Shown here in pieces: positions 19,495 to 29,062 of a stretch of 64,000 bases of DNA. Source of the DNA: an uncultured Actinomycetota bacterium (lineage in GTDB: Bacteria; Actinomycetota; Actinomycetes; Mycobacteriales; SCTD01); NCBI GenBank assembly GCA_963761655.1, contig CAVXHI010000011.1:412588-476587 (forward strand), in the 5' to 3' direction. Under the pieces are notes generated by a model. The model saw only the letters and a program-made list of their open reading frames with translations. It was not told the DNA's origin and ran no database searches. Within the stretch, counting starts at the first letter, position 1. Every line of letters begins with the position of its first letter. The position numbers and the translations under genes were made by a program.

Positions 19495-20151
19495 TCAGAC
19501 CAGGACGTCGAGCGCGCCGGCGAGGTCCGGCAGGACGGCGTCGGGCTCGAGGGCGGCGAGCTCGTCGTAGGGGTGGCCCCCGGTCGCGACCAGCAGGCAG
19601 CGCACCCCGCCGGCCCGGGCGCAGGCGAGGTCGTGCGGGGTGTCACCGACGACCCACGCGCCCGACGCCGGCCGGCCGGACCGGGCCAGGGCGATCGGGA
19701 CGAGCTCCTCGCGGCTGCCGGCGTCGTCGCCGTAGGCCGAGCCCTCCAGGTCGAGGTGCTCGGCCAGGCCGAGGGCGGTGACCTTGGTGCGCGCGGTCTC
19801 GCGGACGTTGCCGGTGAGCACGCCCTGCCACCAGCCGCGCTCCTGCAGCGCCAGCAGGGTCGTGCGGACGTGCGGCAGGACGACCCCCTCGGCGGCCAGC
19901 CGCTCGGCCCGGGCCGCGAGCTCCACGGGCAGGCGGTCGAGCAGCGGGGCCCCCAGGGCGGGGTCGATCCCCTCGGCGAGGCAGACCTGCTCGGCGATCC
20001 ACGGGTCCAGCCGCCCGGCGAAGCTGATGCTGCCGCCGCGCCGGGTCGGGGCCCGACCGACGACGTGCGTGAACGCCGCGAGGAACGCCTCCCGGCTGAC
20101 CGCCCCGGCCCGCAGGAGCGTCCCGTCGATGTCCCACAGGACGGTGCTCAC
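19495..20151 (-). CDS. HAD-family hydrolase
   Basis: DxDGT (LWDIDGTLL), GVLTGN, VVGDTPHD motifs. GTG 20151 overlaps the upstream stop (GTGA). Confidence 0.88.
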   Translation of the reverse strand: MSTVLWDIDGTLLRAGAVSREAFLAAFTHVVGRAPTRRGGSISFAGRLDPWIAEQVCLAEGIDPALGAPLLDRLPVELAARAERLAAEGVVLPHVRTTLLALQERGWWQGVLTGNVRETARTKVTALGLAEHLDLEGSAYGDDAGSREELVPIALARSGRPASGAWVVGDTPHDLACARAGGVRCLLVATGGHPYDELAALEPDAVLPDLAGALDVLV

Positions 20152-21152
20152 GTGGGCGCCGTGTCCCCGCGCCGTCCGGCGTCGAGGTCGCCCGTCGCCC
20201 CGGCCAGCACCGCCCGACGGCCCAGCACGAACACCCAGGCCAGGAACAGCGTCTCCACGACGACGCCGATGCCGATGCGGGCCCAGGTCGGGAGCGGGCT
20301 GGGGGTCACGAAGGCCTCGACCAGTCCGCTGACGAACAGCACCAGGGCCAGCCCCAGGGCGCCGCTGACCAGCGACCGGCCCTCCTCCGCGAGCGCCTGC
20401 GCCCGGGTGCGGCCCCCGGGGTCGACGACCGTCCACCCGAGCTTGAGCCCGAGGCCGCAGGCGACGAACACCGCGGTCAGCTCCAGCAGCCCGTGCGGGA
20501 GGATCAGCCCGAAGAACAGCCCGAGCTTCCCGTTCGCGGCCAGCAGCCCGCCGGACACCCCCACGTTGAGCGCGTTCTGCAGCAGCACGTAGACGACCGG
20601 CAGACCGAGCAGGACCCCGAACAGGATCGCCTGGGCGGCCACGTAGGCGTTGTTGGTGAAGACCCGGGCGGCGAAGTCCTGGGCGGGGTTGTTGCTGTAG
20701 TAGTCGGCGAAGTCGTTCTCGACGAGCTGCCGGGTCTCCTCCGGGCTCGCGATGGCCAGCTGGACGTCGGGGTGCTGGGCGACGAAGACCCCGAAGGCCA
20801 GCCCGACGACGACGAACGCCAGCGCGCTCGCGCCCCACCACCAGCGGGTCCGGTAGCAGATCGCGGGGAAGTCGACGCGCAGGAAGCGGGCGAGGTCCTG
20901 CAGGGCCGGCTGCCTCGTGCCCGCCACGGCCGCCCGGGCCCGCGCGACCAGGCTGCTGAGCCGGGCGACCAGCTGCGGGTCGCGGCCGGCGCTCTGCACG
21001 ACCGACAGGTGGGTCGCGGTGCGCTGGTAGAGGTCGACGACCTCGTCGGCCTCCGCTCCCCGCAGCCGGCGGGGACGCCGCGCCCGGCCGAGCAGGACCT
21101 CGAGCCGGTCCCACTCCGCCCGGTGCGCGGCGACGTACGCGTCGAGGTCCAC
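20148..21152 (-). CDS. SpoIIM-like (DUF95) integral membrane protein
   Basis: 334 aa. Cytoplasmic helical N-domain followed by TM helices, with FTNNAYVAAQAILFGVLLGLP and LPHGLLELTAVFVACGLGL patterns. Confidence 0.8.
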   Translation of the reverse strand: MDLDAYVAAHRAEWDRLEVLLGRARRPRRLRGAEADEVVDLYQRTATHLSVVQSAGRDPQLVARLSSLVARARAAVAGTRQPALQDLARFLRVDFPAICYRTRWWWGASALAFVVVGLAFGVFVAQHPDVQLAIASPEETRQLVENDFADYYSNNPAQDFAARVFTNNAYVAAQAILFGVLLGLPVVYVLLQNALNVGVSGGLLAANGKLGLFFGLILPHGLLELTAVFVACGLGLKLGWTVVDPGGRTRAQALAEEGRSLVSGALGLALVLFVSGLVEAFVTPSPLPTWARIGIGVVVETLFLAWVFVLGRRAVLAGATGDLDAGRRGDTAPT

Positions 21153-21190
21153 AGGTCACCCTAAGCCGCCGGGCGGGGCAGACTGCAGGC

Positions 21191-22045
21191 GTGAGCAGCC
21201 AGCTGGTGACCGGCGAGGCGGTCGCGCTCGAGCTGCGCACCGCCGCGCTCCCGAGCCGCACCGTCGCCGCCCTGATCGACGCCGTCCTGCAGGTCGTCCT
21301 GCTCGTCGGGCTGTTCTACGCCGCGACCTTCGCCGGCGGCGGCTCCGACGCCGCCGACGCCGCCATCGCGGTGCTCGTCCTGGTCATCGGGCTGATCGGC
21401 TACCCCGTCGCCTTCGAGACGGCCCTGCGCGGCCGCACGCCCGGGAAGCTGGCGCTCGGGCTGCGGACCGTGCGCGACGACGGCGGCCCGATCGGGTTCC
21501 GGCAGGCCCTCGTGCGCGGCCTGGCCGGGGCCTTCCTCGAGCGCCCCGGCATCACCCTGTTCTTCGGGGCCTTCGCCACCTCCCTGCTCAACCGGGACTC
21601 CAAGCGCCTCGGCGACCTGCTCGCCGGCACGGTGGTGCTGCAGGAGCGGGTGCCGTCCAAGGGGTCGCCGCTGCCGCAGACCCCGCCGGAGCTGGTGCCG
21701 TGGGCCCGCTCGCTCGAGCTGACCGGGCTTCCCGACGACCTCGCCCTGCAGGCCCGCGCCCTGCTGACCCGCTCCGCCCAGCTGACGCCGGAGGCCCGCG
21801 AGGACCTCGGCGGCCGCCTGGTGACGGCGGTCCTGGCCCGCACCAGCCCGCCCCCGCCGCCCGGCACCCCGGGGTGGGCGGTGCTGGCCGCGGTCCTCGC
21901 GGAGCGGACCCGCCGGGCGCAGGAGCGCCTGCAGGGACCTCCGACGGCTCCCCCTGCCGCCGCCCCCGCTGCGGCTCCTTCCGCAGCGGCGCCCAGCACG
22001 CCGCCGCCGTCGTCGTCGTCGTCGGGGTTCACGCTGCCCGGCTGA
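21191..22045 (+). CDS. RDD-family membrane protein
   Basis: RDD-type N-terminus (ALIDAVLQVVLL, RGRTPGKLALGLRTVRDDG) and a Pro/Ala-rich tail. Divergent from the SpoIIM-like gene. Confidence 0.8.
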   Translation: MSSQLVTGEAVALELRTAALPSRTVAALIDAVLQVVLLVGLFYAATFAGGGSDAADAAIAVLVLVIGLIGYPVAFETALRGRTPGKLALGLRTVRDDGGPIGFRQALVRGLAGAFLERPGITLFFGAFATSLLNRDSKRLGDLLAGTVVLQERVPSKGSPLPQTPPELVPWARSLELTGLPDDLALQARALLTRSAQLTPEAREDLGGRLVTAVLARTSPPPPPGTPGWAVLAAVLAERTRRAQERLQGPPTAPPAAAPAAAPSAAAPSTPPPSSSSSGFTLPG

Positions 22046-22565: not shown

Positions 22566-24094
22566 ACGACGCCCTCGGCGACGCCGTCCGCACGGCCGTC
22601 CGCGCCCACGTCGATGCCGAGCCGGTCGATCCGTCCGCCCTGCTGACGGGCGTGCTGTCCCGCCGGGCGACGCGGCGGTGGGTCGCGCCGGTGGCGGCGG
22701 CCGCCGCGGTGGCCCTGGTGGCGGGCGGGGCAGTGCTGGTGCGGCCGTCCTCACCGGCGCCCGCACCGGTCGCGCCGGCGGTCCCGGTCGGACTGCAGGC
22801 GGTCAGCTGGCACGGCGTGCAGGTGCTGGTGCCGGCGGCGTGGCGCCTGGACGACCTGCGGTGCAGCAGCGCGCAGAGCGACACCGTGCTCCGGCCCGGG
22901 GCGCGCCTGGCCTGCCTCGCACCGCAGGCCCCGGGGCTCACCGTCGTCGAGTTCGAGGGCCTCCCCGACGAGCAGGACGCGCGGTACCGGTCCGTCCAGG
23001 AGGCGCGCTACGCCTCCATGCCGGTCGACCTGGGCGGCACGGCAGCGCGTCGGGGAGCGGTCCCGGAGCCCCTCGGCGGGCAGCCCGGTCCGCGTGCCGT
23101 GCTCGTCGTGCCGTCGCTGCAGGTCGTCGTCACGGTCACCGCGCCCAGCCTCGCCGCGGCCGACGCCCTGCTGGACACCGCGACCGTCGTCGAGGTGGAC
23201 GCGAACGGGTGCCGCTCCCGGGTGGCGTCCACCCGCCCCGCCGGACCTGCCAGCCGCGACGGCGCCGACGAGCGTCTCCTGCCCGGCGCCCCGACGTCGG
23301 TCAGCGTCTGCCGCTACGGCCGCGGACGGCTCGACGACTCCCGCCGGCTCTCCCCCGACGCCGTCACCGCCCTGCAGACCCGGCTCGACGGGCTGCCGAC
23401 CGGCCGGTCGGACCGGGTGCCGGTGGGGAGCATCGCCGCCGACCTCTGCCCGGCGATCGACGACGACGGCGTCCTGCTCGACGCCGCCTACCGGCGCGGG
23501 CCCGGCGTGCAGGTCTGGGTCCGCGACCAGGCGTGCACCGACCGGTCCACGACGAACGGCAGCGCGGTGCGCCGGGCCGGCGGGCTCGACACGTACGCCC
23601 TGCTGCGCGGCGAGCCGCTCGTCCTGCCGCCCGCGCGGAAGGAGCCCGCCCCCGAGCTCGGGTACGCCGGCCTCCCTCGACGGCAGACCCCGCCCGTGCC
23701 GGCCCAGCGGGCCGACGTCCTGGCCCGCACGGACGACCCGGCCGACGGCCGGCTGCTCGGCGTGCGGCGGGCCGACGGACGGCGCTGCCTGCTGCTGGCC
23801 ACGAGCGAGGCCACGCCCCCCTACGACTGCGAGCCGGACGACCTGCTGCTCCCGCTGGGGCAGCTGCACGACGGCGCCGGGACCTGGGCCGGCACGGGAC
23901 CCGACGTCGTCCGCGCCGTGCGGGTGCTGGTCGACGGTCGGCAGGTCGCGGTCGTCCCCACCTGGGGCGGCGGCGCCGCCTGGGGCCAGCGCCGGGGCTT
24001 CCTGGTCCGGCTGCCGAGCGGCGCCACGCCGGTGTTCGTGCCGCTGGACGGCCTCGGCCGCGACGTCGTGGCGCTTCCCCGCCCAGGGTCGTGA
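22562..24094 (+). CDS. Single-pass membrane protein co-translated with the ECF sigma (putative anti-sigma/partner, no recognised domain)
   Basis: GTG 22562 overlaps the sigma stop (GTGA). Short cytoplasmic segment, TM (WVAPVAAAAAVALVAGGAVLV), about 440-aa extracytoplasmic region. Confidence 0.7.
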   Translation: MNDALGDAVRTAVRAHVDAEPVDPSALLTGVLSRRATRRWVAPVAAAAAVALVAGGAVLVRPSSPAPAPVAPAVPVGLQAVSWHGVQVLVPAAWRLDDLRCSSAQSDTVLRPGARLACLAPQAPGLTVVEFEGLPDEQDARYRSVQEARYASMPVDLGGTAARRGAVPEPLGGQPGPRAVLVVPSLQVVVTVTAPSLAAADALLDTATVVEVDANGCRSRVASTRPAGPASRDGADERLLPGAPTSVSVCRYGRGRLDDSRRLSPDAVTALQTRLDGLPTGRSDRVPVGSIAADLCPAIDDDGVLLDAAYRRGPGVQVWVRDQACTDRSTTNGSAVRRAGGLDTYALLRGEPLVLPPARKEPAPELGYAGLPRRQTPPVPAQRADVLARTDDPADGRLLGVRRADGRRCLLLATSEATPPYDCEPDDLLLPLGQLHDGAGTWAGTGPDVVRAVRVLVDGRQVAVVPTWGGGAAWGQRRGFLVRLPSGATPVFVPLDGLGRDVVALPRPGS

Positions 24095-24117
24095 GCCGCT
24101 CCAACCCCCTCCCCGGC

Positions 24118-24182
24118 CCTGCTTGTCCGAGCGGGGCGACATCACTGAGGCCCTGACAGGTCGCTGCGCCCGGACAAGCAGG
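24118..24182 (+). terminator. Long hairpin downstream of the sigma-partner gene
   Basis: Perfect 12-bp arms CCTGCTTGTCCG/CGGACAAGCAGG with a 41-nt structured loop, 24 nt after the stop at 24094. Confidence 0.45.
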
Positions 24183-24231
24183 CCGGCAGCAGACAGGCCA
24201 GGCGCACCGCCTCAGCCCCCGGACACGCCGA

Positions 24232-24259
24232 CGGCCCGCCCCTCGAGAGGGACGGGCCG
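24232..24259 (-). terminator. Hairpin terminator candidate downstream of ahcY
   Basis: CGGCCCG/CGGGCCG arms extended by inner CCCTC/GAGGG pairs, 16 nt past the ahcY stop (24275). Confidence 0.5.
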
Positions 24260-24274
24260 CCGGTGCAGGTCGGT

Positions 24275-25749
<1,475 letters not shown>

Positions 25750-25753
<4 letters not shown>

Positions 25754-26139
25754 GCGATCTCCTGGTTCATCGGGTGAGGAGCGGGAGCGGTCAGCAGGTG
25801 CTGGTGCTTGTCCTGCTCGAAGCGCAACCAGTCGGCGTCGTCGGCCGGTCTGGGGAGTACAGGTCGGCGGGGCTCCGCCTCGAACCACGCGTCGAGCGCC
25901 GCGGCCAGCTCGGGCTCCTTGCGGAGCCGGAGAGCGAGGCCGACGTCGCCGAGCTCGAGACCGGACGTCTCGAGCAGCTCACGGAGGGTGCGGAGCCGCT
26001 GCAGCTCGGCCGGGCCGTAGAGCCGGTAGCCCGACGCCGAGCGCGGCGGCTCCACGAGGCCGAGCTGCTCGACGTACCGCAGCATCCGCGCCGACCAACC
26101 GGTGGTCTGCGCGGCCTCGTGGATCGTGAGCGTCGCCAT
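25750..26139 (-). CDS. MerR-family transcriptional regulator, translationally coupled to ahcY
   Basis: [56 protein letters not shown] overlap with the ahcY start. Confidence 0.88.
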
Positions 26140-26196
26140 CGGGGACGACGTTACCGCAGTCGTGTCAAGGTCGCAGCACCAACGCGGTGGACCCGG

Positions 26197-26715
26197 TCAC
26201 AGTCGTGTCAGGGCTGCCAGGACGACGCCCGTCCCCGCCACGAGCACGTCCCCGGCGAGGTGCACCTCGCGGCGCTCCCCGGTGGCGAGGTCGGCCGCCT
26301 CGTAGCGCTCGGTCTCCTGCACGTCCGGCGTCCGGGCCCAGCCCTCCTCGACCGTCAGGGCGCCCAGCGCGTCGGACAGCCGCACGAGCCGGGCCCGGGA
26401 CGTCGCGCCCACGGACAGGCCGAGCAGCCGGGCGGTGACGACGGCGAAGGCGGGGCTGTCGCCGGTGAAGGCCGCCGCCGTCGTCGCGTGCTCGACGCCG
26501 TCCCGCTGCCAGACGACGCCCGGACCGACGGCTCCGCCGCGCAGCTCCGACCCGCCGCTGGCGACCAGCAGCCGGACCGGCCGCCAGGCGGCGTCGACCG
26601 TGAGGTCCAGGGACCACCCCGGGCGCCTCCCGACGTAGCGCCACCCGAGCGGCCCGGCGGCGCAGGAGAACTCCTCCACGGTCCCGCCGTCCAGCAGGTA
26701 GCTACCGGCCGGCAC
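26197..26715 (-). CDS. Hypothetical protein (172 aa, beta-rich, no recognised motif)
   Basis: Protein-like composition. Its start overlaps the 3' end of the SAHH-like gene by 14 nt. Confidence 0.6.
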   Translation of the reverse strand: MPAGSYLLDGGTVEEFSCAAGPLGWRYVGRRPGWSLDLTVDAAWRPVRLLVASGGSELRGGAVGPGVVWQRDGVEHATTAAAFTGDSPAFAVVTARLLGLSVGATSRARLVRLSDALGALTVEEGWARTPDVQETERYEAADLATGERREVHLAGDVLVAGTGVVLAALTRL

Positions 26716-27952
26716 GCCAGCTGCTCAGGTACTCCTCCTGCGCGGGCGTGAGGACGTCGATCCCGACGCCGGTCGCCTCGAGGCGGGTCCGGGCCACCTC
26801 GGCGTCGATCCGGGCCGGCACCTCGTGGACGCCCGGCGCGAGGTCGGCCGTGACGAGGTGCTCGAGGGTCAGGGCCTGGACGGCGAAGGACACGTCCATC
26901 ACCGCGGCCGGGTGGCCGTCGGCGGCCGACAGGTTCACCAGCCGCCCCTCGGCCAGCAGCAGCAGGCGGCGCCCGTCGGGCAGGACGTGCTCGTCGACCG
27001 ACGGCCGGACGCGGTGGACCTCGTCGGCGAGGGCGGCCAGGCCGCGGACGTCGATCTCGACGTCGAAGTGCCCCGCGTTCGCCAGCACGGCGCCGTCCTT
27101 CATCGTCGCGAAGTGCGCGGGGCGCAGGACGTCGCGGCTGCCGGTGGTCGTGACGAAGACGTCGCCGAGCGGGGCGGCGTCGGCCATGGGCATGACCCGG
27201 TGCCCGTCGAGGACCGCCTCGAGCGCCCGCCCGGGGTCGACCTCCGTGACGACGACGCTCGCCCCCAGTCCCCGGGCCCGCTCGGCCACTCCGGAGCCGC
27301 ACCAGCCGTAGCCCGCGACGACGACGGTCGACCCCGCCAGCAGCGTGCCGGTCGACCGGACGACGGCGTCGAGCGTGGACTGGCCGGTGCCGTGCCGGTT
27401 CGCGACGAGGAGCTGCACGGCGGTGTCGTTCACGGCGACGACCGGCAGGCGCAGGGCGCCGTCGGCGTGCATCTGCCGCAGCCGCAGGACGCCCGTGGTC
27501 GTCTCCTCGCAGGCCGCGCGCACGCCGTCGAGCAGGTCGGGGCGGGGACCGTGCAGGGCGCCGACGAGGTCGCACCCGTCGTCGAGCAGCAGGTGCGGCC
27601 GGGCCTCCAGGACGGCCTCGAGGTGGCGCGCGTAGGTGCCGCGGTCCGCGCCGTGGCGGGCGTGCACCCCGACGCCGAGGTCGACCAGCGCGGCCGCGAC
27701 GTCGTCCTGCGTGCTGAGCGGGTTGGAGGCGGCGAGGTGCACCTCGGCGCCACCGGCGAGCAGGACCCGCGCGAGGGCCGCGGTCTCGGGGGTGACGTGC
27801 ATGCAGGCGGCCAGGCGGACGCCGCGCAGGGGGGTCGTCGCGGCGAAGCGCGAGCGCAGGCGGGCGAGCACGGGCATGGCGCGCTCGGCGAAGTCGATCC
27901 GGCGGCGACCGGCGTCGGCCAGCGAGAGGTCCGCGACGTCGGAGGCCAGCAC
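26702..27952 (-). CDS. Adenosylhomocysteinase-like paralogue (short/archaeal type) with substituted catalytic Lys/Asp positions
   Basis: 416 aa. CMHVTPETA, DDGCD, EETTTGV, GYGWCGSG, GHFDVEID, GRLVNL...GHP are all present. The [11 protein letters not shown] box reads NDTAVQLLVAN. Confidence 0.85.
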   Translation of the reverse strand: MLASDVADLSLADAGRRRIDFAERAMPVLARLRSRFAATTPLRGVRLAACMHVTPETAALARVLLAGGAEVHLAASNPLSTQDDVAAALVDLGVGVHARHGADRGTYARHLEAVLEARPHLLLDDGCDLVGALHGPRPDLLDGVRAACEETTTGVLRLRQMHADGALRLPVVAVNDTAVQLLVANRHGTGQSTLDAVVRSTGTLLAGSTVVVAGYGWCGSGVAERARGLGASVVVTEVDPGRALEAVLDGHRVMPMADAAPLGDVFVTTTGSRDVLRPAHFATMKDGAVLANAGHFDVEIDVRGLAALADEVHRVRPSVDEHVLPDGRRLLLLAEGRLVNLSAADGHPAAVMDVSFAVQALTLEHLVTADLAPGVHEVPARIDAEVARTRLEATGVGIDVLTPAQEEYLSSWRAGR

Positions 27953-27958
27953 GGGACG

Positions 27959-27968
27959 ACAGTAGGTT
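27959..27968. promoter_or_regulatory. Back-to-back overlapping -10 elements for two leaderless divergent genes
   Basis: Plus strand: TAGGTT (27963-27968), then 7 nt, then GTG 27976. Minus strand: TACTGT (27964-27959), then 6 nt, then GTG 27952. The start codons are exactly 23 nt apart. Confidence 0.5.
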
Positions 27969-27975
27969 CCGCAGC

Positions 27976-28419
27976 GTGATCGACCCCAAGACGCTCATCG
28001 AGGGCTCGCCCGGCTTCGCCACCACCCTCGGCCTCACGATCGAGCAGTCCTCGCGGGACCGCGCCGTCGGGCGGCTCGACGCCGGGGCGCACCTGTTCAA
28101 CCACGTCGGCGGTCCGCACGCGGCGGCCGTCTACGGGCTCGGCGAGCTGACCAGCTTCGCCCTGCTGCTCGAGGTGTTCGGCGACCTCGTCGAGGGCGGG
28201 GCGGTCCCCCTGGTCAAGGAGGGCACGATCCGCTACTCCGCGATCGCCACCGGCCCGCTGCTGGCCACCGCGACCCTGCAGGACGACGAGGCCGGGGCCC
28301 GCGCCTCGCTGGAGCAGCGCGGCCGCGCGACCTTCGCCGTCGAGGTCGTGTTCACCCGCGAGACCGACGACGTGCAGACCGCCTCCGCGAGCTACCGGAT
28401 GGCGCTGCTGCGGGTGTGA
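27976..28419 (+). CDS. Hotdog-fold thioesterase (PaaI/DUF4442-like)
   Basis: 147 aa. The LTIEQSS.DRAVGRL...HLFNHVGGPHAAAVYGLGE pattern is typical of PaaI-type hotdog proteins. Confidence 0.7.
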   Translation: MIDPKTLIEGSPGFATTLGLTIEQSSRDRAVGRLDAGAHLFNHVGGPHAAAVYGLGELTSFALLLEVFGDLVEGGAVPLVKEGTIRYSAIATGPLLATATLQDDEAGARASLEQRGRATFAVEVVFTRETDDVQTASASYRMALLRV

Positions 28420-28490
28420 CGCAGTCCGCGCTTGCACGAGCTAGCAGCGGGCAAGCAGTCGGTGACCCACCACCGACCCTAGGAGCACCC

Positions 28491-29033
28491 GTGCCCGGTA
28501 CCGCCGACGAAGCACGTTCCGGACTCCTCGCCTCCCTCACCGGCAAGGTCAAGGAGGTGGCGGGCGCCGTCACCGGCAACGACAGCCTCGCCGCGGAGGG
28601 CCAGCTGCAGCAGGCCGAGGCGGCCGCCCGCAAGGACGCCGCCGCGAAGGAGGCCGTCGCCTCGGTGCAGGCCGAGCAGGCCGCCGCCGAGATCGCGCAG
28701 ACCACCGCCGAGGCCGACGCCGCCCGGGCCGCGTCCGAGCGGGAGGCCGCCGCGCAGCTGGCCGCCGCCGACGTCGCCGCCGAGCTGCAGGAGGAGAGCG
28801 TCGAGGCGCGCCTCGCCCGCGAGGAGGCCGCCCGCGTGGCCGCCGCCGAGCAGGAGGCCGACCGCGAGGTCGTCGCCGCCCGTCAGCGCGTCGTCGCCGA
28901 GCAGGCCGCCGCGGACCGCCGCGCCGCCGAGGTCGAGCGCGAGGCCGCCCAGGAGCAGACCCAGGCCTCGCTCGCCGAGCAGGCCGCCGCCCGTGCCCGC
29001 GCCGAGGCCGACCGCCTCGCCGCCCAGGCCTGA
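28491..29033 (+). CDS. CsbD-like domain fused to an Ala/Glu-rich coiled coil
   Basis: GTG 28491 lies 5 nt after AGGAG. LTGKVKEVAGAVTGNDSLAAEGQ (CsbD pattern), then about 130 aa of A/E/Q/R helix. Confidence 0.75.
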   Translation: MPGTADEARSGLLASLTGKVKEVAGAVTGNDSLAAEGQLQQAEAAARKDAAAKEAVASVQAEQAAAEIAQTTAEADAARAASEREAAAQLAAADVAAELQEESVEARLAREEAARVAAAEQEADREVVAARQRVVAEQAAADRRAAEVEREAAQEQTQASLAEQAAARARAEADRLAAQA

Positions 29034-29062
29034 TCCCTCCCCCGAGACCCCAGGAGCACCCC

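What the first reader, a model, noticed from the sequence alone, without database searches (positions are those of the whole stretch)
26197..27952. Second, short-type adenosylhomocysteinase-like gene lacks the catalytic Lys and Asp equivalents and is coupled to an unknown 172-aa protein
A canonical ahcY lies at 24275-25753 and carries [19 protein letters not shown]. The 416-aa paralogue keeps most SAHH landmarks: HxT, DDGxD, EETTTG, the GYGWCGSG NAD loop, GHFDVEID and GHP.

The aligned box, however, reads NDTAVQLLVANRHGTGQS. The Lys that corresponds to human AHCY K186 is Gln, D190 is Ala, and T185 is Val. These residues are implicated in 3'-OH proton abstraction and ribose/NAD contacts. The paralogue is therefore unlikely to be a standard SAH hydrolase and may be a binding protein or an enzyme with altered chemistry.

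Its 3' end overlaps the start of an unassigned 172-aa gene by 14 nt, and it is divergently paired with a hotdog thioesterase.
Basis: partly seen in the sequence, partly recalled or inferred. Interest (0 to 1): 0.65.

Follow-up and report, generated by a model that had tools for sequence, protein, structure and literature searches.

The report
SAH hydrolase paralogue lacking catalytic Lys/Asp
Next to its normal S-adenosylhomocysteine hydrolase gene, this soil actinobacterium keeps a second copy whose two key catalytic residues are replaced in every relative found, so a gene that databases label as the enzyme probably binds its ligands without doing the standard reaction.

Summary
The 416-aa gene (26702-27952, minus strand) has a full SAHH fold and passes NCBI's equivalog cut-off for adenosylhomocysteinase. 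Alignment to solved SAHHs puts Gln at human K186 and Ala at D190.

This is a clade signature, not an error. All 120 closest protein clusters (74-100% identity; Frankiales/Mycobacteriales MAGs) carry Q and A, 117 also carry Y193H, and 53 carry E156Q. A second clade from Geodermatophilaceae MAGs shares Q/A/H.

The adenine pocket, the 5'-side residues H55/D131/H301 and the NAD site are invariant. dN/dS is 0.15-0.19, and the gene diverges no faster relative to the housekeeping gene than catalytically intact paralogues do.

The gene belongs to an actinobacterial "ahcY2" lineage that always sits beside the long housekeeping ahcY and a MerR gene. The 172-aa partner has a PA1994/DUF1089-like fold. It accompanies ahcY in at least 584 genomic stretches, so the coupling predates the K-to-Q change. 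Within this clade it is truncated or lost in 9 of 20 loci.

My best reading (0.45) is a redox-disabled protein that still binds NAD and adenosine or SAH. The main rival (0.30) is altered chemistry. I found no description of bacterial clades like this in the searchable papers.

The parts
26702..27952 (-). ahcY2 (Q/A/H type): a 416-aa short-type SAHH paralogue with a complete SAHH fold but Gln at K186, Ala at D190 and His at Y193.
   Evidence: ORF. Pfam PF05221 and PF00670. TIGR00936 scores 558.6 against a 497.6 cut-off. The AF2 model has pLDDT 90.2 and matches 7O5M with TM 0.86.
27389..27430 (-). Remodelled hinge-helix box NDTAVQLLVANRHG (residues 175-188). Q180 corresponds to K186, A184 to D190 and H187 to Y193.
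   Evidence: Translation. In the model a helix spans residues 178-187, so positions i, i+4 and i+7 should share one face (helical periodicity, inferred). Q and A are present in 120/120 and H in 117/120 homologue clusters.
27491..27508 (-). EETTTG motif (residues 149-154). E150 corresponds to E156, the 2'-OH ligand. It is retained here but is Gln in 53 of 120 clade members.
27785..27799 (-). HVTPE, the HxTxE adenine-type nucleobase motif. It contains H55, T57 and E59, all invariant in the clade.
   Evidence: The motif's meaning comes from PMC10978960.
26197..26715 (-). 172-aa partner with a PA1994/DUF1089-like beta-sheet fold. It overlaps the ahcY2 stop by 14 nt. It is an old neighbour of ahcY in actinobacteria.
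   Evidence: Overlap. Family alignment with 20 invariant residues. AF2 model with pLDDT 96. The only significant Foldseek hit is 2H1T, with E 3.3e-07 and TMq 0.63. Genomic linkage.
25750..26139 (-). MerR-family regulator. Its stop overlaps the start of the long ahcY by 4 nt. It is adjacent to the long ahcY in every Q/A locus that extends far enough to show it.
   Evidence: Pfam MerR_1 at 1.1e-14. Context.
24275..25753 (-). Canonical long-type ahcY, the housekeeping SAH hydrolase, with K and D intact ([11 protein letters not shown]).
   Evidence: TIGR00936 scores 615 bits. Pfam. Sequence.
26140..26215 (-). Intergenic region between the partner and MerR. It holds a conserved TGACAcg...GGTAAcgT element 8 nt before the MerR ATG and an upstream TGACA-containing (imperfect) palindrome. 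This is probably the MerR-ahcY promoter and operator.
   Evidence: Sequence. The same arrangement appears upstream of MerR in 23 related loci. Function is inferred.
27953..27975 (-). A 23-nt gap upstream of ahcY2 containing TACTGT (27959-27964), a -10-like hexamer 6 nt before the GTG. This suggests a separate, near-leaderless transcript.
   Evidence: A TAGTGT/TAGTCT-like hexamer lies 6-12 nt before the start in most clade loci. Function is inferred.
27976..28419 (+). Divergent DUF4442 gene (related to PA5026/1SH8, recalled as hotdog-fold). It is a frequent but not universal neighbour of this clade.
   Evidence: Pfam PF14539 at 6.8e-13. PA5026/1SH8 at E 1.2e-07. Present in L002, L014, L085, L089-L094, L096, L112, L165 and L167, and absent in L083 and L166.

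Best explanation
The gene is an 'ahcY2': a second, short-type SAHH copy that an actinobacterial lineage keeps beside its housekeeping long-type ahcY.

In this branch the three residues on one face of the hinge helix, which in canonical SAHH includes the ribose 2'/3'-OH ligands, have been fixed as Gln, Ala and His in place of Lys186, Asp190 and Tyr193. The fourth member of that subsite, Glu156, is Gln in about half of the clade.

**Shown.**
- The fold, the NAD-binding residues, the adenine pocket (HxTxE, H353, M358, F362) and the 5'-side residues (H55, D131, H301) are all invariant.
- The gene is under purifying selection as strong as that on catalytically intact paralogues.

**Inferred.**
- The protein still binds NAD(H) and an adenine nucleoside (adenosine or SAH).
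- It can no longer run the 3'-OH oxidation and 3'-keto reduction cycle that every SAHH turnover needs, because the Lys186 proton donor/acceptor and its carboxylate partners are gone.
- It therefore most likely works as a non-hydrolysing, or extremely slow, ligand-binding SAHH-like protein, a bacterial pseudoenzyme.
- It probably acts in SAH/adenosine homeostasis together with the adjacent MerR-ahcY unit, as a sensor, a buffer or a regulatory subunit.
- The 172-aa PA1994-like partner is an older, dispensable neighbour and not part of the mechanism.
For: - **Substitutions confirmed.** A gap-free alignment to solved SAHH shows them.
- **Residue roles.** In SAHH structures Glu156 and Asp190 bind the 2'-OH, and Thr157 and Lys186 bind the 3'-OH. 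Lys186 donates the proton to the 3'-keto oxygen. Lys186, Asp190 and His353 sit in the hinge and stabilise the closed form (PMC4647836). Mutagenesis papers on Lys185 and Asp189 are cited there, and a K185N structure exists (1XWF).
- **Clade-wide fixation.** Q is 120/120, A 120/120, H 117/120 and N364V 119/120. E156 is E in 67 and Q in 53. The Geodermatophilaceae clade is Q/A/H with EQTTTG in 13 of 14 clusters.
- **Binding residues kept.** H55, T57, E59, D131, T157, N191, H301, H353, M358 and F362 are invariant in all 120 clusters. The Gly-rich NAD loop, E243 and N346 are invariant in the 35 clade members sampled for the per-clade table.
- **Purifying selection.** dN/dS is 0.149-0.186 in the closest pairs. 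The divergence ratio of short to long paralogue is 1.6 in Q/A genomes and 1.4 in K/D genomes.
- **Canonical copy always present.** A long ahcY is adjacent in every Q/A locus with enough flank.
- **Likely expressed.** A -10-like hexamer is conserved just upstream of the start codon across the clade.
- **Model.** The AF2 model has an SAHH fold, and Q180, A184 and H187 lie on one helix, residues 178-187.
Against: - No biochemical data exist and there is no cultured host.
- From memory of the rat mutagenesis literature, single K185N or D189N mutants keep roughly 0.03-0.5% of activity, so residual turnover cannot be excluded.
- Strict retention of H55, D131 and H301, which are catalytic as well as ligand-binding, would also fit an active enzyme.
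- The co-fixed His at the Y193 position could be a replacement base.
- No interaction partner or regulatory output has been identified.
- A pure binding role usually tolerates more drift than is seen here.
Confidence: 0.45

Rival explanations
1. A neofunctionalised enzyme. The Q/A/H-lined (and E/Q) ribose subsite recognises a different adenine nucleoside, for example one altered at the 2' or 3' position, or it supports different NAD-dependent chemistry. The retained H55/D131/H301 would still do acid-base work at C4'/C5', and His187 would act as a new base.
For: - There is precedent that SAHH-family proteins annotated as SAH hydrolase do other chemistry. AgmF does not accept SAH and dehydrates angustmycin C (PMC8599513).
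- Only the 2'/3' subsite changed, while all other catalytic and binding residues are invariant.
- The changes are coordinated (Q+A+H+V) and occur in two clades.
- A sister clade remodelled the same subsite differently: E156S, K186R, Y193C, H353N.
- Constraint is as tight as on active paralogues.
- Many other non-K/D variants exist among SAHH-family representatives.
Against: - AgmF keeps Lys and Asp, and its authors tested K184A and D188A variants among proposed essential sites. Known neofunctionalisation in this family therefore did not require losing them.
- The locus holds no biosynthetic or nucleoside-modifying genes. The neighbours are housekeeping ahcY, MerR and conserved synteny genes.
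- Without a 3'-OH base it is unclear how NAD-dependent activation would start.
Confidence: 0.3
2. It is still a genuine, if slower, SAH hydrolase. Another group, such as His187 or a water held by Gln180, takes over proton transfer at O3', giving a paralogue with different kinetics or regulation.
For: - It scores above the NCBIfam equivalog cut-offs.
- The adenine-type HxTxE motif is retained.
- The 5'-side catalytic residues and the NAD site are all intact.
- It sits next to ahcY, and in the Q/A-II clade it lies in a tight MerR-ahcY-ahcY2-partner array.
Against: - K186 and D190 are invariant in all 50 non-actinobacterial short-type SAHHs sampled and in 101 of 150 family representatives.
- Structures assign them direct roles at O3' and O2'.
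- E156 is also lost in about half of the clade.
- The genome always keeps a canonical copy.
Confidence: 0.12
3. A decaying duplicate, or a sequencing or assembly artefact.
For: It is a redundant second copy beside an intact gene, and catalytic residues are lost.
Against: - The ORF is intact.
- The identical substitutions occur in 120 independent 90%-identity clusters from many metagenomes.
- dN/dS is 0.15-0.19.
- There is no rate acceleration relative to intact paralogues.
- A conserved -10-like element lies upstream.
Confidence: 0.02

Closest known systems
Short ('archaeal/cyanobacterial') type SAH hydrolase, e.g. Synechocystis sp. PCC 6803 SAHH (PDB 7O5L/7O5M)
   Same: - It is the closest solved structure by sequence (E 5.7e-149). 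Foldseek gives 55% identity and TM 0.86.
- Length and domain order are the same.
- The NAD loop, the HxTxE adenine motif, H55, D131, H301 and GHP are shared.
   Different: The window protein has Q, A and H where the enzyme has K186, D190 and Y193, and V where it has N364. The hinge helix is more hydrophobic: TKHFYDN becomes VQLLVAN.
Actinobacterial K/D-type ahcY2 (Actinomadura, Spirillospora, Actinocorallia and relatives)
   Same: - It is a short-type second copy at 62-67% identity, lying next to the long ahcY.
- It is followed within about 10 nt by the same PA1994-like partner gene.
- It falls in the same NJ superclade (bootstrap 54-79).
   Different: - It keeps K186, D190 and Y193.
- Some members already have E156Q, and N364 is Asp.
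- The gene order is ahcY-ahcY2-partner rather than ahcY2-partner-MerR-ahcY.
AHCYL1/IRBIT and AHCYL2 (eukaryotic SAHH-like pseudoenzymes; PDB 3MTG, 3GVP)
   Same: These are SAHH-fold paralogues that coexist with the true enzyme. From my own knowledge they lack hydrolase activity and act through binding and regulation. They are a functional analogue of the favoured reading.
   Different: - They are eukaryotic and only distantly related (E about 1e-70).
- They carry an N-terminal regulatory extension that is absent here.
- From memory, the residues that differ from the enzyme are not the Lys/Asp pair. I did not test this.
AgmF, the SAHH-family dehydratase of angustmycin biosynthesis (PMC8599513)
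   Same: It is annotated as SAH hydrolase, carries tightly bound NAD+, and does not accept SAH. It shows the family can change function.
   Different: - AgmF retains Lys and Asp, and its authors tested K184A and D188A variants among proposed essential sites.
- It lies in a nucleoside-antibiotic gene cluster.
- The window gene lies in a housekeeping ahcY locus and lacks both residues.
S-inosyl-L-homocysteine hydrolase (MjSIHH) and hypoxanthine-preferring archaeal SAHHs (PMC10978960)
   Same: They are short-type SAHH relatives with altered substrate preference. Solved members match at E about 1e-124 to 1e-134.
   Different: Their specificity switch lies in the nucleobase motif (HxExK) and their catalytic residues are intact. 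The window protein keeps the adenine motif HxTxE and changes the ribose subsite instead.
Engineered rat SAHH mutants K185N and D189N (PDB 1XWF for K185N)
   Same: The same two positions are neutralised. This is the nearest experimental proxy for what the natural substitutions should do to the redox steps.
   Different: Those are laboratory single mutants of an active enzyme. Here both positions, plus Y193 and N364 and often E156, are changed together and fixed by selection across a clade.
PA1994 / DUF1089 (Pfam PF06475, PDB 2H1T), for the 172-aa partner
   Same: It is the only significant structural match (Foldseek E 3.3e-07, TMq 0.63). [quoted passage not shown]
   Different: - Sequence similarity is below the Pfam threshold (no hit for the window protein; 2 of 28 relatives at E 0.016).
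- The partner family has its own invariant set: E14, C18, W25, R26, D37, D41, R45, R48, R59, H152.
- The 'glycolipid-binding' label for PA1994 is itself only a prediction.

Membership tests
Adenosylhomocysteinase (SAHH, ahcY; TIGR00936 / PF05221+PF00670) | Two-domain SAHH fold and family HMM scores above the curated cut-offs | tested here: met
   PF00670 at 6.2e-51 and PF05221 at 3.7e-50. TIGR00936 scores 558.6 against 497.6, and NF004005 scores 559.1 against 275. The AF2 model matches 7O5M with TM 0.86.
Adenosylhomocysteinase (SAHH, ahcY) | NAD-binding residues: the Gly-rich loop, T157-T159, N191, E243 and N346 | tested here: met
   GYGWCGSG, EETTTG, N185, E237 and N340 are present. These positions are invariant in the clade except T158, which is T, S or G.
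Adenosylhomocysteinase (SAHH, ahcY) | Adenine recognition through the HxTxE motif, H353, M358 and F362 | tested here: met
   HVTPE. H347, M352 and F356 are invariant in 120/120.
Adenosylhomocysteinase (SAHH, ahcY) | 5'-side catalytic residues His55, Asp131 and His301 | tested here: met
   H52, D125 and H295 are invariant in 120/120.
Adenosylhomocysteinase (SAHH, ahcY) | Catalytic Lys186, the 3'-OH ligand and proton donor/acceptor for the redox steps | tested here: not met
   Gln180 in the window protein and in 120/120 clade members. The residue's role is taken from PMC4647836.
Adenosylhomocysteinase (SAHH, ahcY) | Asp190, the 2'-OH ligand and partner of Lys186 | tested here: not met
   Ala184 in the window protein and in 120/120 clade members.
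Adenosylhomocysteinase (SAHH, ahcY) | Glu156, a 2'-OH ligand | tested here: inconclusive
   It is Glu in the window protein but Gln in 53 of 120 clade members and in all Q/A-II members.
Adenosylhomocysteinase (SAHH, ahcY) | [quoted passage not shown] | not testable with these tools
   This needs recombinant protein.
S-inosyl-L-homocysteine hydrolase | HxExK nucleobase motif, associated with hypoxanthine preference | tested here: not met
   The motif is HVTPE, which is HxTxE. The criterion comes from PMC10978960.
AgmF-type SAHH-family dehydratase | Retained Lys/Asp catalytic pair and a location in an angustmycin-type nucleoside biosynthesis cluster | tested here: not met
   The pair is Q and A here. 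The neighbours are MerR, long ahcY, the partner and DUF4442, with no agm-like genes.
AHCYL1/IRBIT-type pseudoenzyme | N-terminal regulatory (IRBIT/PEST) extension in front of the SAHH-like domain (defining feature taken from my own knowledge) | tested here: not met
   The SAHH match starts at residue 4-5 of 416, so there is no extension. The resemblance is functional only.
DUF1089 / PF06475 (PA1994-like), for the partner | Pfam HMM match above threshold | tested here: not met
   The window protein gives no hit. Two of 28 relatives reach E 0.016. A profile search against PDB gives 2H1T at E 0.48.
DUF1089 / PF06475 (PA1994-like), for the partner | PA1994 fold: a beta-sheet wrapped around one helix | tested here: met
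   AF2 pLDDT is 96, with 15 strands and one helix. Foldseek matches 2H1T at E 3.3e-07, probability 1.00, TMq 0.63.
DUF1089 / PF06475 (PA1994-like), for the partner | Conserved acidic pocket (Asp101, Asp103, Tyr147 of PA1994) | not tested
   No residue-level structural superposition was available. The partner family's invariant residues form a different set.

The most novel reading that the evidence does not exclude
Actinobacterial ahcY2 may be an unrecognised family of SAHH-derived proteins that has repeatedly rebuilt only the ribose 2'/3' subsite. The variants are Q-A-H in Frankiales-type and Geodermatophilaceae MAGs and S-R-D-C in a sister clade.

The Q/A/H members would then be one of two things. 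They could be the first bacterial SAHH pseudoenzymes, an IRBIT-like SAH/adenosine/NAD(H) sensor or regulatory subunit that controls the methyl cycle with MerR-ahcY. Or they could be NAD-dependent enzymes with a new proton-transfer arrangement or a new nucleoside substrate.

In both cases the many protein clusters now auto-annotated as 'adenosylhomocysteinase' (at least 134 in the two clades) would be mislabelled.
Probability: 0.7. Interest if true: 0.7.

Novelty: new variant of a known kind. Interest (0 to 1): 0.58.

Why it matters
SAHH is one of the most conserved enzymes known, and its catalytic Lys and Asp are treated as invariant.

- **Annotation.** A large, selectively maintained bacterial clade that lacks them still passes the 'equivalog' HMM cut-offs. 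Genome annotation and metabolic models therefore count a second SAH hydrolase where there probably is none.
- **Biology.** If it is a ligand-binding pseudoenzyme, it would be a bacterial counterpart of eukaryotic IRBIT/AHCYL. It would also give a handle on how actinobacteria sense or buffer SAH, adenosine or NAD(H).
- **Enzymology.** If it is active, it would show an alternative way to run, or to bypass, the 3'-oxidation step.
- **Evolution.** The graded series offers a natural experiment on how a redundant copy of an essential enzyme is repurposed. The series runs from fully canonical, through K/D with E156Q, to Q/A/H and S/R/D/C.

Tried and rejected
- **Riboswitch or other RNA element.** An Rfam scan of 23500-29500 at E<=1 gave only two sub-threshold chance hits.
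- **Consensus promoter and terminator scan.** The scan of 24000-28600 found nothing. Conserved -10-like elements only appeared when I compared loci.
- **Expression evidence.** No public run holds this genome; the best run shares 0.07 of the sampled words. No reads were laid.
- **Cultured carrier of the clade.** None was found. Cluster members are all MAG or metagenome proteins without organism names. Named hits are 'Frankiales', 'Mycobacteriales' or 'Geodermatophilaceae bacterium' MAGs.
- **Literature.** Searches for a second or paralogous bacterial adenosylhomocysteinase, SAHH-like proteins and DUF1089 found only eukaryotic AHCYL papers, plant SAHH isoforms, AgmF and the PA1994 structure paper.
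- **SIHH hypothesis.** Rejected, because the adenine-type HxTxE motif is present.
- **AgmF-like dehydratase.** Rejected, because AgmF keeps K and D and has a different genomic context.
- **Obligate partner hypothesis.** I rejected the idea that the 172-aa partner is an obligate subunit specific to the Q/A state. It is linked to canonical ahcY in many genomes, and it is truncated or lost in 9 of 20 Q/A-I loci.
- **Single versus double origin of Q/A/H.** Not resolved. NJ bootstrap for Q/A-I plus Q/A-II is 61 with all columns and 32 without the box columns.
- **Spatial clustering of clade-specific substitutions.** Only helix periodicity could be used.
Full report
**What is in the window**

The region lies in a DNA stretch of about 76% G+C. 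Its closest relatives are Frankiales and Mycobacteriales metagenome-assembled genomes.

On the minus strand the gene order is:
- a 416-aa SAHH-like gene (27952 to 26702);
- a 172-aa gene whose GTG overlaps the upstream stop by 14 nt (26715 to 26197);
- a 57-nt gap;
- a MerR-family gene (26139 to 25750);
- the canonical long-type ahcY, whose start overlaps the MerR stop by 4 nt (25753 to 24275).

A DUF4442 gene starts 23 nt upstream on the other strand. Its nearest solved relative is PA5026/1SH8, which I recall as hotdog-fold.

The 416-aa protein matches both SAHH Pfam domains. It scores above the curated equivalog cut-offs (TIGR00936 558.6 against 497.6), so annotation pipelines will name it adenosylhomocysteinase, as its relatives are named.

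phmmer against all PDB sequences gives Synechocystis SAHH 7O5L as the best hit (E 5.7e-149). The alignment has no gap anywhere near the box. The query reads VND-TAVQLLVANRHGTGQS where the enzyme reads VND-ADTKHFYDNRYGTGQS. Lys186 is therefore Gln180 and Asp190 is Ala184. I verified the coordinates by translation.

An AlphaFold model (pLDDT 90.2) has the SAHH fold, with TM 0.86 to 7O5M. It places residues 178-187 in one helix. Q180, A184 and H187 are at i, i+4 and i+7, so by helical periodicity they should share a face.

**It is a clade signature**

All 120 best homologue clusters (74-100% identity) carry Q and A. In addition, 117 carry His at the Tyr193 position and 119 carry Val at the Asn364 position. 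Glu156 is Glu in 67 and Gln in 53.

Every other residue that SAHH structures show in contact with ligand is invariant. For the residues checked across all 120 clusters:
- His55, Asp131 and His301 contact the 5'-OH.
- Thr57, Glu59 and His353 contact the adenine.
- Thr157, Met358, Phe362 and Asn191 are also invariant.

The Gly-rich loop, Glu243 and Asn346 are invariant in the 35 clade members sampled for the per-clade table. Contact assignments for the substrate-binding residues come from PMC4647836; the NAD-site assignments are from my own knowledge of SAHH structures.

That paper also states that Glu156 and Asp190 bind the 2'-OH, and that Thr157 and Lys186 bind the 3'-OH. Lys186 donates the proton to the 3'-keto oxygen. 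Lys186, Asp190 and His353 are hinge residues that stabilise the closed form. What has changed is therefore specifically the ribose 2'/3' redox subsite.

The nucleobase motif is HxTxE (adenine type), not the HxExK of inosine-preferring enzymes.

**It is not decaying**

| Measure | Value |
|---|---|
| dN/dS, closest pairs | 0.186 and 0.149 |
| Short/long paralogue divergence, Q/A genomes | 1.6 |
| Short/long paralogue divergence, K/D genomes | 1.4 |
| Short/long paralogue divergence, Q/A versus K/D pairs | 1.6 |

There is no relaxation of constraint and no obvious burst of change. A -10-like hexamer (TACTGT here, TAGTGT or TAGTCT elsewhere) lies 6-12 nt before the start codon across the clade. 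This suggests a separate, near-leaderless transcript.

**Evolutionary setting**

I scanned one genome per species for the 172-aa partner and scanned metagenomes for the paralogue. This revealed an actinobacterial 'ahcY2' lineage, a short-type SAHH copy beside the long ahcY.

| Group | Where found | Key residues | Gene order |
|---|---|---|---|
| K/D type | Actinomadura, Spirillospora, Actinocorallia and relatives (32 of 80 genome loci) | K, D, Y kept (NDTDTKHMFDNRYG); some members E156Q; N364 is Asp | ahcY - ahcY2 - partner |
| Q/A-I | This clade; Frankiales/Mycobacteriales MAGs | K186Q, D190A, Y193H, N364V; E156 E or Q | ahcY2 - partner (when present) - MerR - ahcY |
| Q/A-II | Geodermatophilaceae MAGs, 14 clusters | NDS.IQQSFANRHG with EQTTTG | MerR - ahcY - ahcY2 - partner |
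| S/R/D/C | Sister clade | E156S, K186R, N181D, Y193C, H353N, N364V | ahcY - ahcY2, no partner |

All 50 non-actinobacterial short-type SAHHs sampled are fully canonical.

In neighbour-joining trees each derived clade has 100% bootstrap support. The actinobacterial superclade has 54-79%. The grouping of Q/A-I with Q/A-II has only 32-61%, so a single versus double origin of Q/A/H is unresolved.

A search of 50%-identity representatives shows that other non-K/D combinations exist elsewhere in the family: KE 9, RD 6, EN 4 and AD 3 of 150.

**The partner**

The 172-aa protein belongs to a well-conserved family with 20 invariant residues, including E14, C18, W25, R26, D37, D41, R45, R48, R59 and H152. 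It has no Pfam hit.

A confident model (pLDDT 96) has one significant structural relative. That is PA1994/DUF1089, PDB 2H1T (E 3.3e-07, TMq 0.63), a structural-genomics protein whose 'glycolipid-binding' role is itself a prediction (PMC2954207).

At least 584 genomic stretches encode a relative. Among the 80 best loci:
- 32 have a K/D ahcY2 just upstream;
- 3 have a Q/A ahcY2;
- 36 have only the long ahcY within the flank held, often directly upstream;
- 9 show no SAHH in the flank held.

The whole block sits in conserved synteny with RDD and SpoIIM-like genes.

The association with ahcY is therefore old and independent of the catalytic state of ahcY2. The same residues are invariant in partners from all three contexts.

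Within Q/A-I the partner evolves fast, with dN/dS 0.37-0.79. Across 20 unique loci it is:
- intact in 11;
- reduced in 3 to 135-147 aa that lack most or all of the invariant N-terminal motif (the E156Q subclade);
- absent in 6.

It is therefore not an obligate part of whatever the Q/A protein does. The constant neighbours are MerR and the long ahcY.

**How it most likely works**

*Shown.* The fold, the NAD site, the adenine pocket and the 5'-side residues are intact. The O2'/O3' ligands are neutralised. Purifying selection is strong. A canonical copy is always adjacent.

*Inferred.* The protein binds NAD(H) and adenosine or SAH. It cannot perform the 3'-oxidation/reduction cycle at a useful rate, because the proton donor/acceptor and its carboxylate partners are missing. 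I therefore favour a non-hydrolysing, ligand-binding SAHH-like protein acting in SAH/adenosine homeostasis with the MerR-ahcY unit (0.45).

*Main rival (0.30).* It could be a neofunctionalised enzyme. The coordinated Q+A+H+V change, the independent remodelling of the same subsite in the S/R/D/C clade, and the strict retention of His55/Asp131/His301 all fit an altered substrate or a new proton relay. AgmF shows that SAHH-family proteins can abandon SAH. However, AgmF keeps Lys and Asp and sits in a biosynthetic cluster, unlike this gene.

*Other rivals.* A residual true hydrolase is possible (0.12). Decay or artefact is effectively excluded (0.02).

**Comparison with what is known, and novelty**

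By fold and HMM score the protein is a member of the SAHH family. It fails two defining catalytic features that I tested, Lys186 and Asp190. Its clade is split on a third, Glu156. It should not be filed as EC-level adenosylhomocysteinase.

It is not an SIHH, not an AgmF-type dehydratase, and not an AHCYL/IRBIT homologue in the strict sense because it has no N-terminal extension. IRBIT is the closest functional analogy.

My literature searches found no description of bacterial SAHH paralogues that lack these residues. I rate it a new variant of a known kind, with moderate-to-good interest. The sequence evidence is strong, the functional consequence is plausible but untested, and the decisive experiments are simple.

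**Other observations**

- A conserved TGACAcg...GGTAAcgT element and an upstream TGACA-N7-TGTCA palindrome precede the MerR gene in 23 related loci. This is probably the MerR-ahcY promoter and operator.
- No Rfam family, consensus promoter or terminator was detected in the locus.
- No sequencing run holds this genome.

Noticed in passing
window 26140-26215 (minus strand), and the equivalent position in L001, L002, L014, L081-L098 and L108-L113: A conserved TGACAcg(N9-12)GGTAAcgT element ends about 8 nt before the MerR ATG. About 40 nt further upstream is a TGACA-N7-TGTCA palindrome, imperfect in the window (TGACACGACTGTGACC). This is probably the promoter and operator of the MerR-ahcY unit.
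   Followed up: partly
window 25750-25753; L081 7744-7747: The MerR stop and the long ahcY start overlap by 4 nt in the window and in L081; in the other loci checked the pair is adjacent but separated by a short gap. A MerR gene lies directly upstream of the long ahcY in all Q/A loci with enough flank and in several K/D loci, which suggests dedicated regulation of SAH hydrolase in these actinobacteria.
   Followed up: partly
L104, L134, L139, L143, L144, L148, L152-L154, L157, L163 (metagenome loci): A third ahcY2 clade lies next to the long ahcY with a different remodelling of the same subsite: E156S (ESTTTG), K186R, N181D, Y193C and H353N/S (box DDSRTRRMFDNFCG). It has no partner gene. NJ bootstrap support is 100.
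   Followed up: partly
L009, L025, L041, L042, L062 (Actinomadura and relatives): Some otherwise canonical K/D-type ahcY2 copies already carry E156Q (EQTTTG), and the clade has Asp at N364. Drift of the 2'-OH subsite may therefore precede the loss of Lys and Asp.
   Followed up: no
L165 5251-5676, L166 5254-5697, L167 5410-5817: In the E156Q subclade of Q/A-I the gene after ahcY2 is a truncated partner homologue of 135-147 aa. It matches HMM positions from about 26-52 up to 166-179. It lacks most or all of the invariant N-terminal ERFSCAPGPxGWRY motif (L165 and L166 keep only a GW remnant). In L090/L091 the slot holds an unrelated 273-aa ORF with an HLDLDH motif (metallo-beta-lactamase-like; my own reading).
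   Followed up: partly
proteins P0238, P0242, P0247 (search of 50%-identity representatives): Proteins of 800-827 aa contain two tandem SAHH-like units. In P0247 the second unit has a degenerate box (ADRSTAGVVASDSHA). Other representatives show KE, RD, EN, AD, TD and further non-K/D pairs.
   Followed up: no
window 24001-26000: The 2-kb bin holding the long ahcY has 69.6% G+C against 75-79% for its neighbours. The synonymous divergence of ahcY between relatives is also unusually low (dS 0.14 against 0.46 for ahcY2). This fits strong codon-usage or expression constraint.
   Followed up: no
window 28416-29033 and 29063-29731 (+): Two Ala/Glu-rich, probably coiled-coil proteins lie downstream of DUF4442. 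The first has a sub-threshold CsbD-like N-terminus (35.7 bits against a cut-off of 40).
   Followed up: no
residues 338-345 and 181-190 of the 416-aa protein (window about 26918-26941 and 27383-27412): In an otherwise confident AF2 model the only segment with pLDDT below 50 is the loop just before the GHP hinge. The remodelled hinge helix is also lower, at 76. Both are the elements that close the domains over the ligand in SAHH.
   Followed up: no
window 20148-22045; the equivalent position in most of L001-L080: RDD-family and SpoIIM-like membrane protein genes keep conserved synteny with ahcY and the partner gene across Streptosporangiales, Streptomycetales and Frankiales-type genomes. Part of the ahcY-partner linkage could therefore reflect old synteny and not shared function.
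   Followed up: partly
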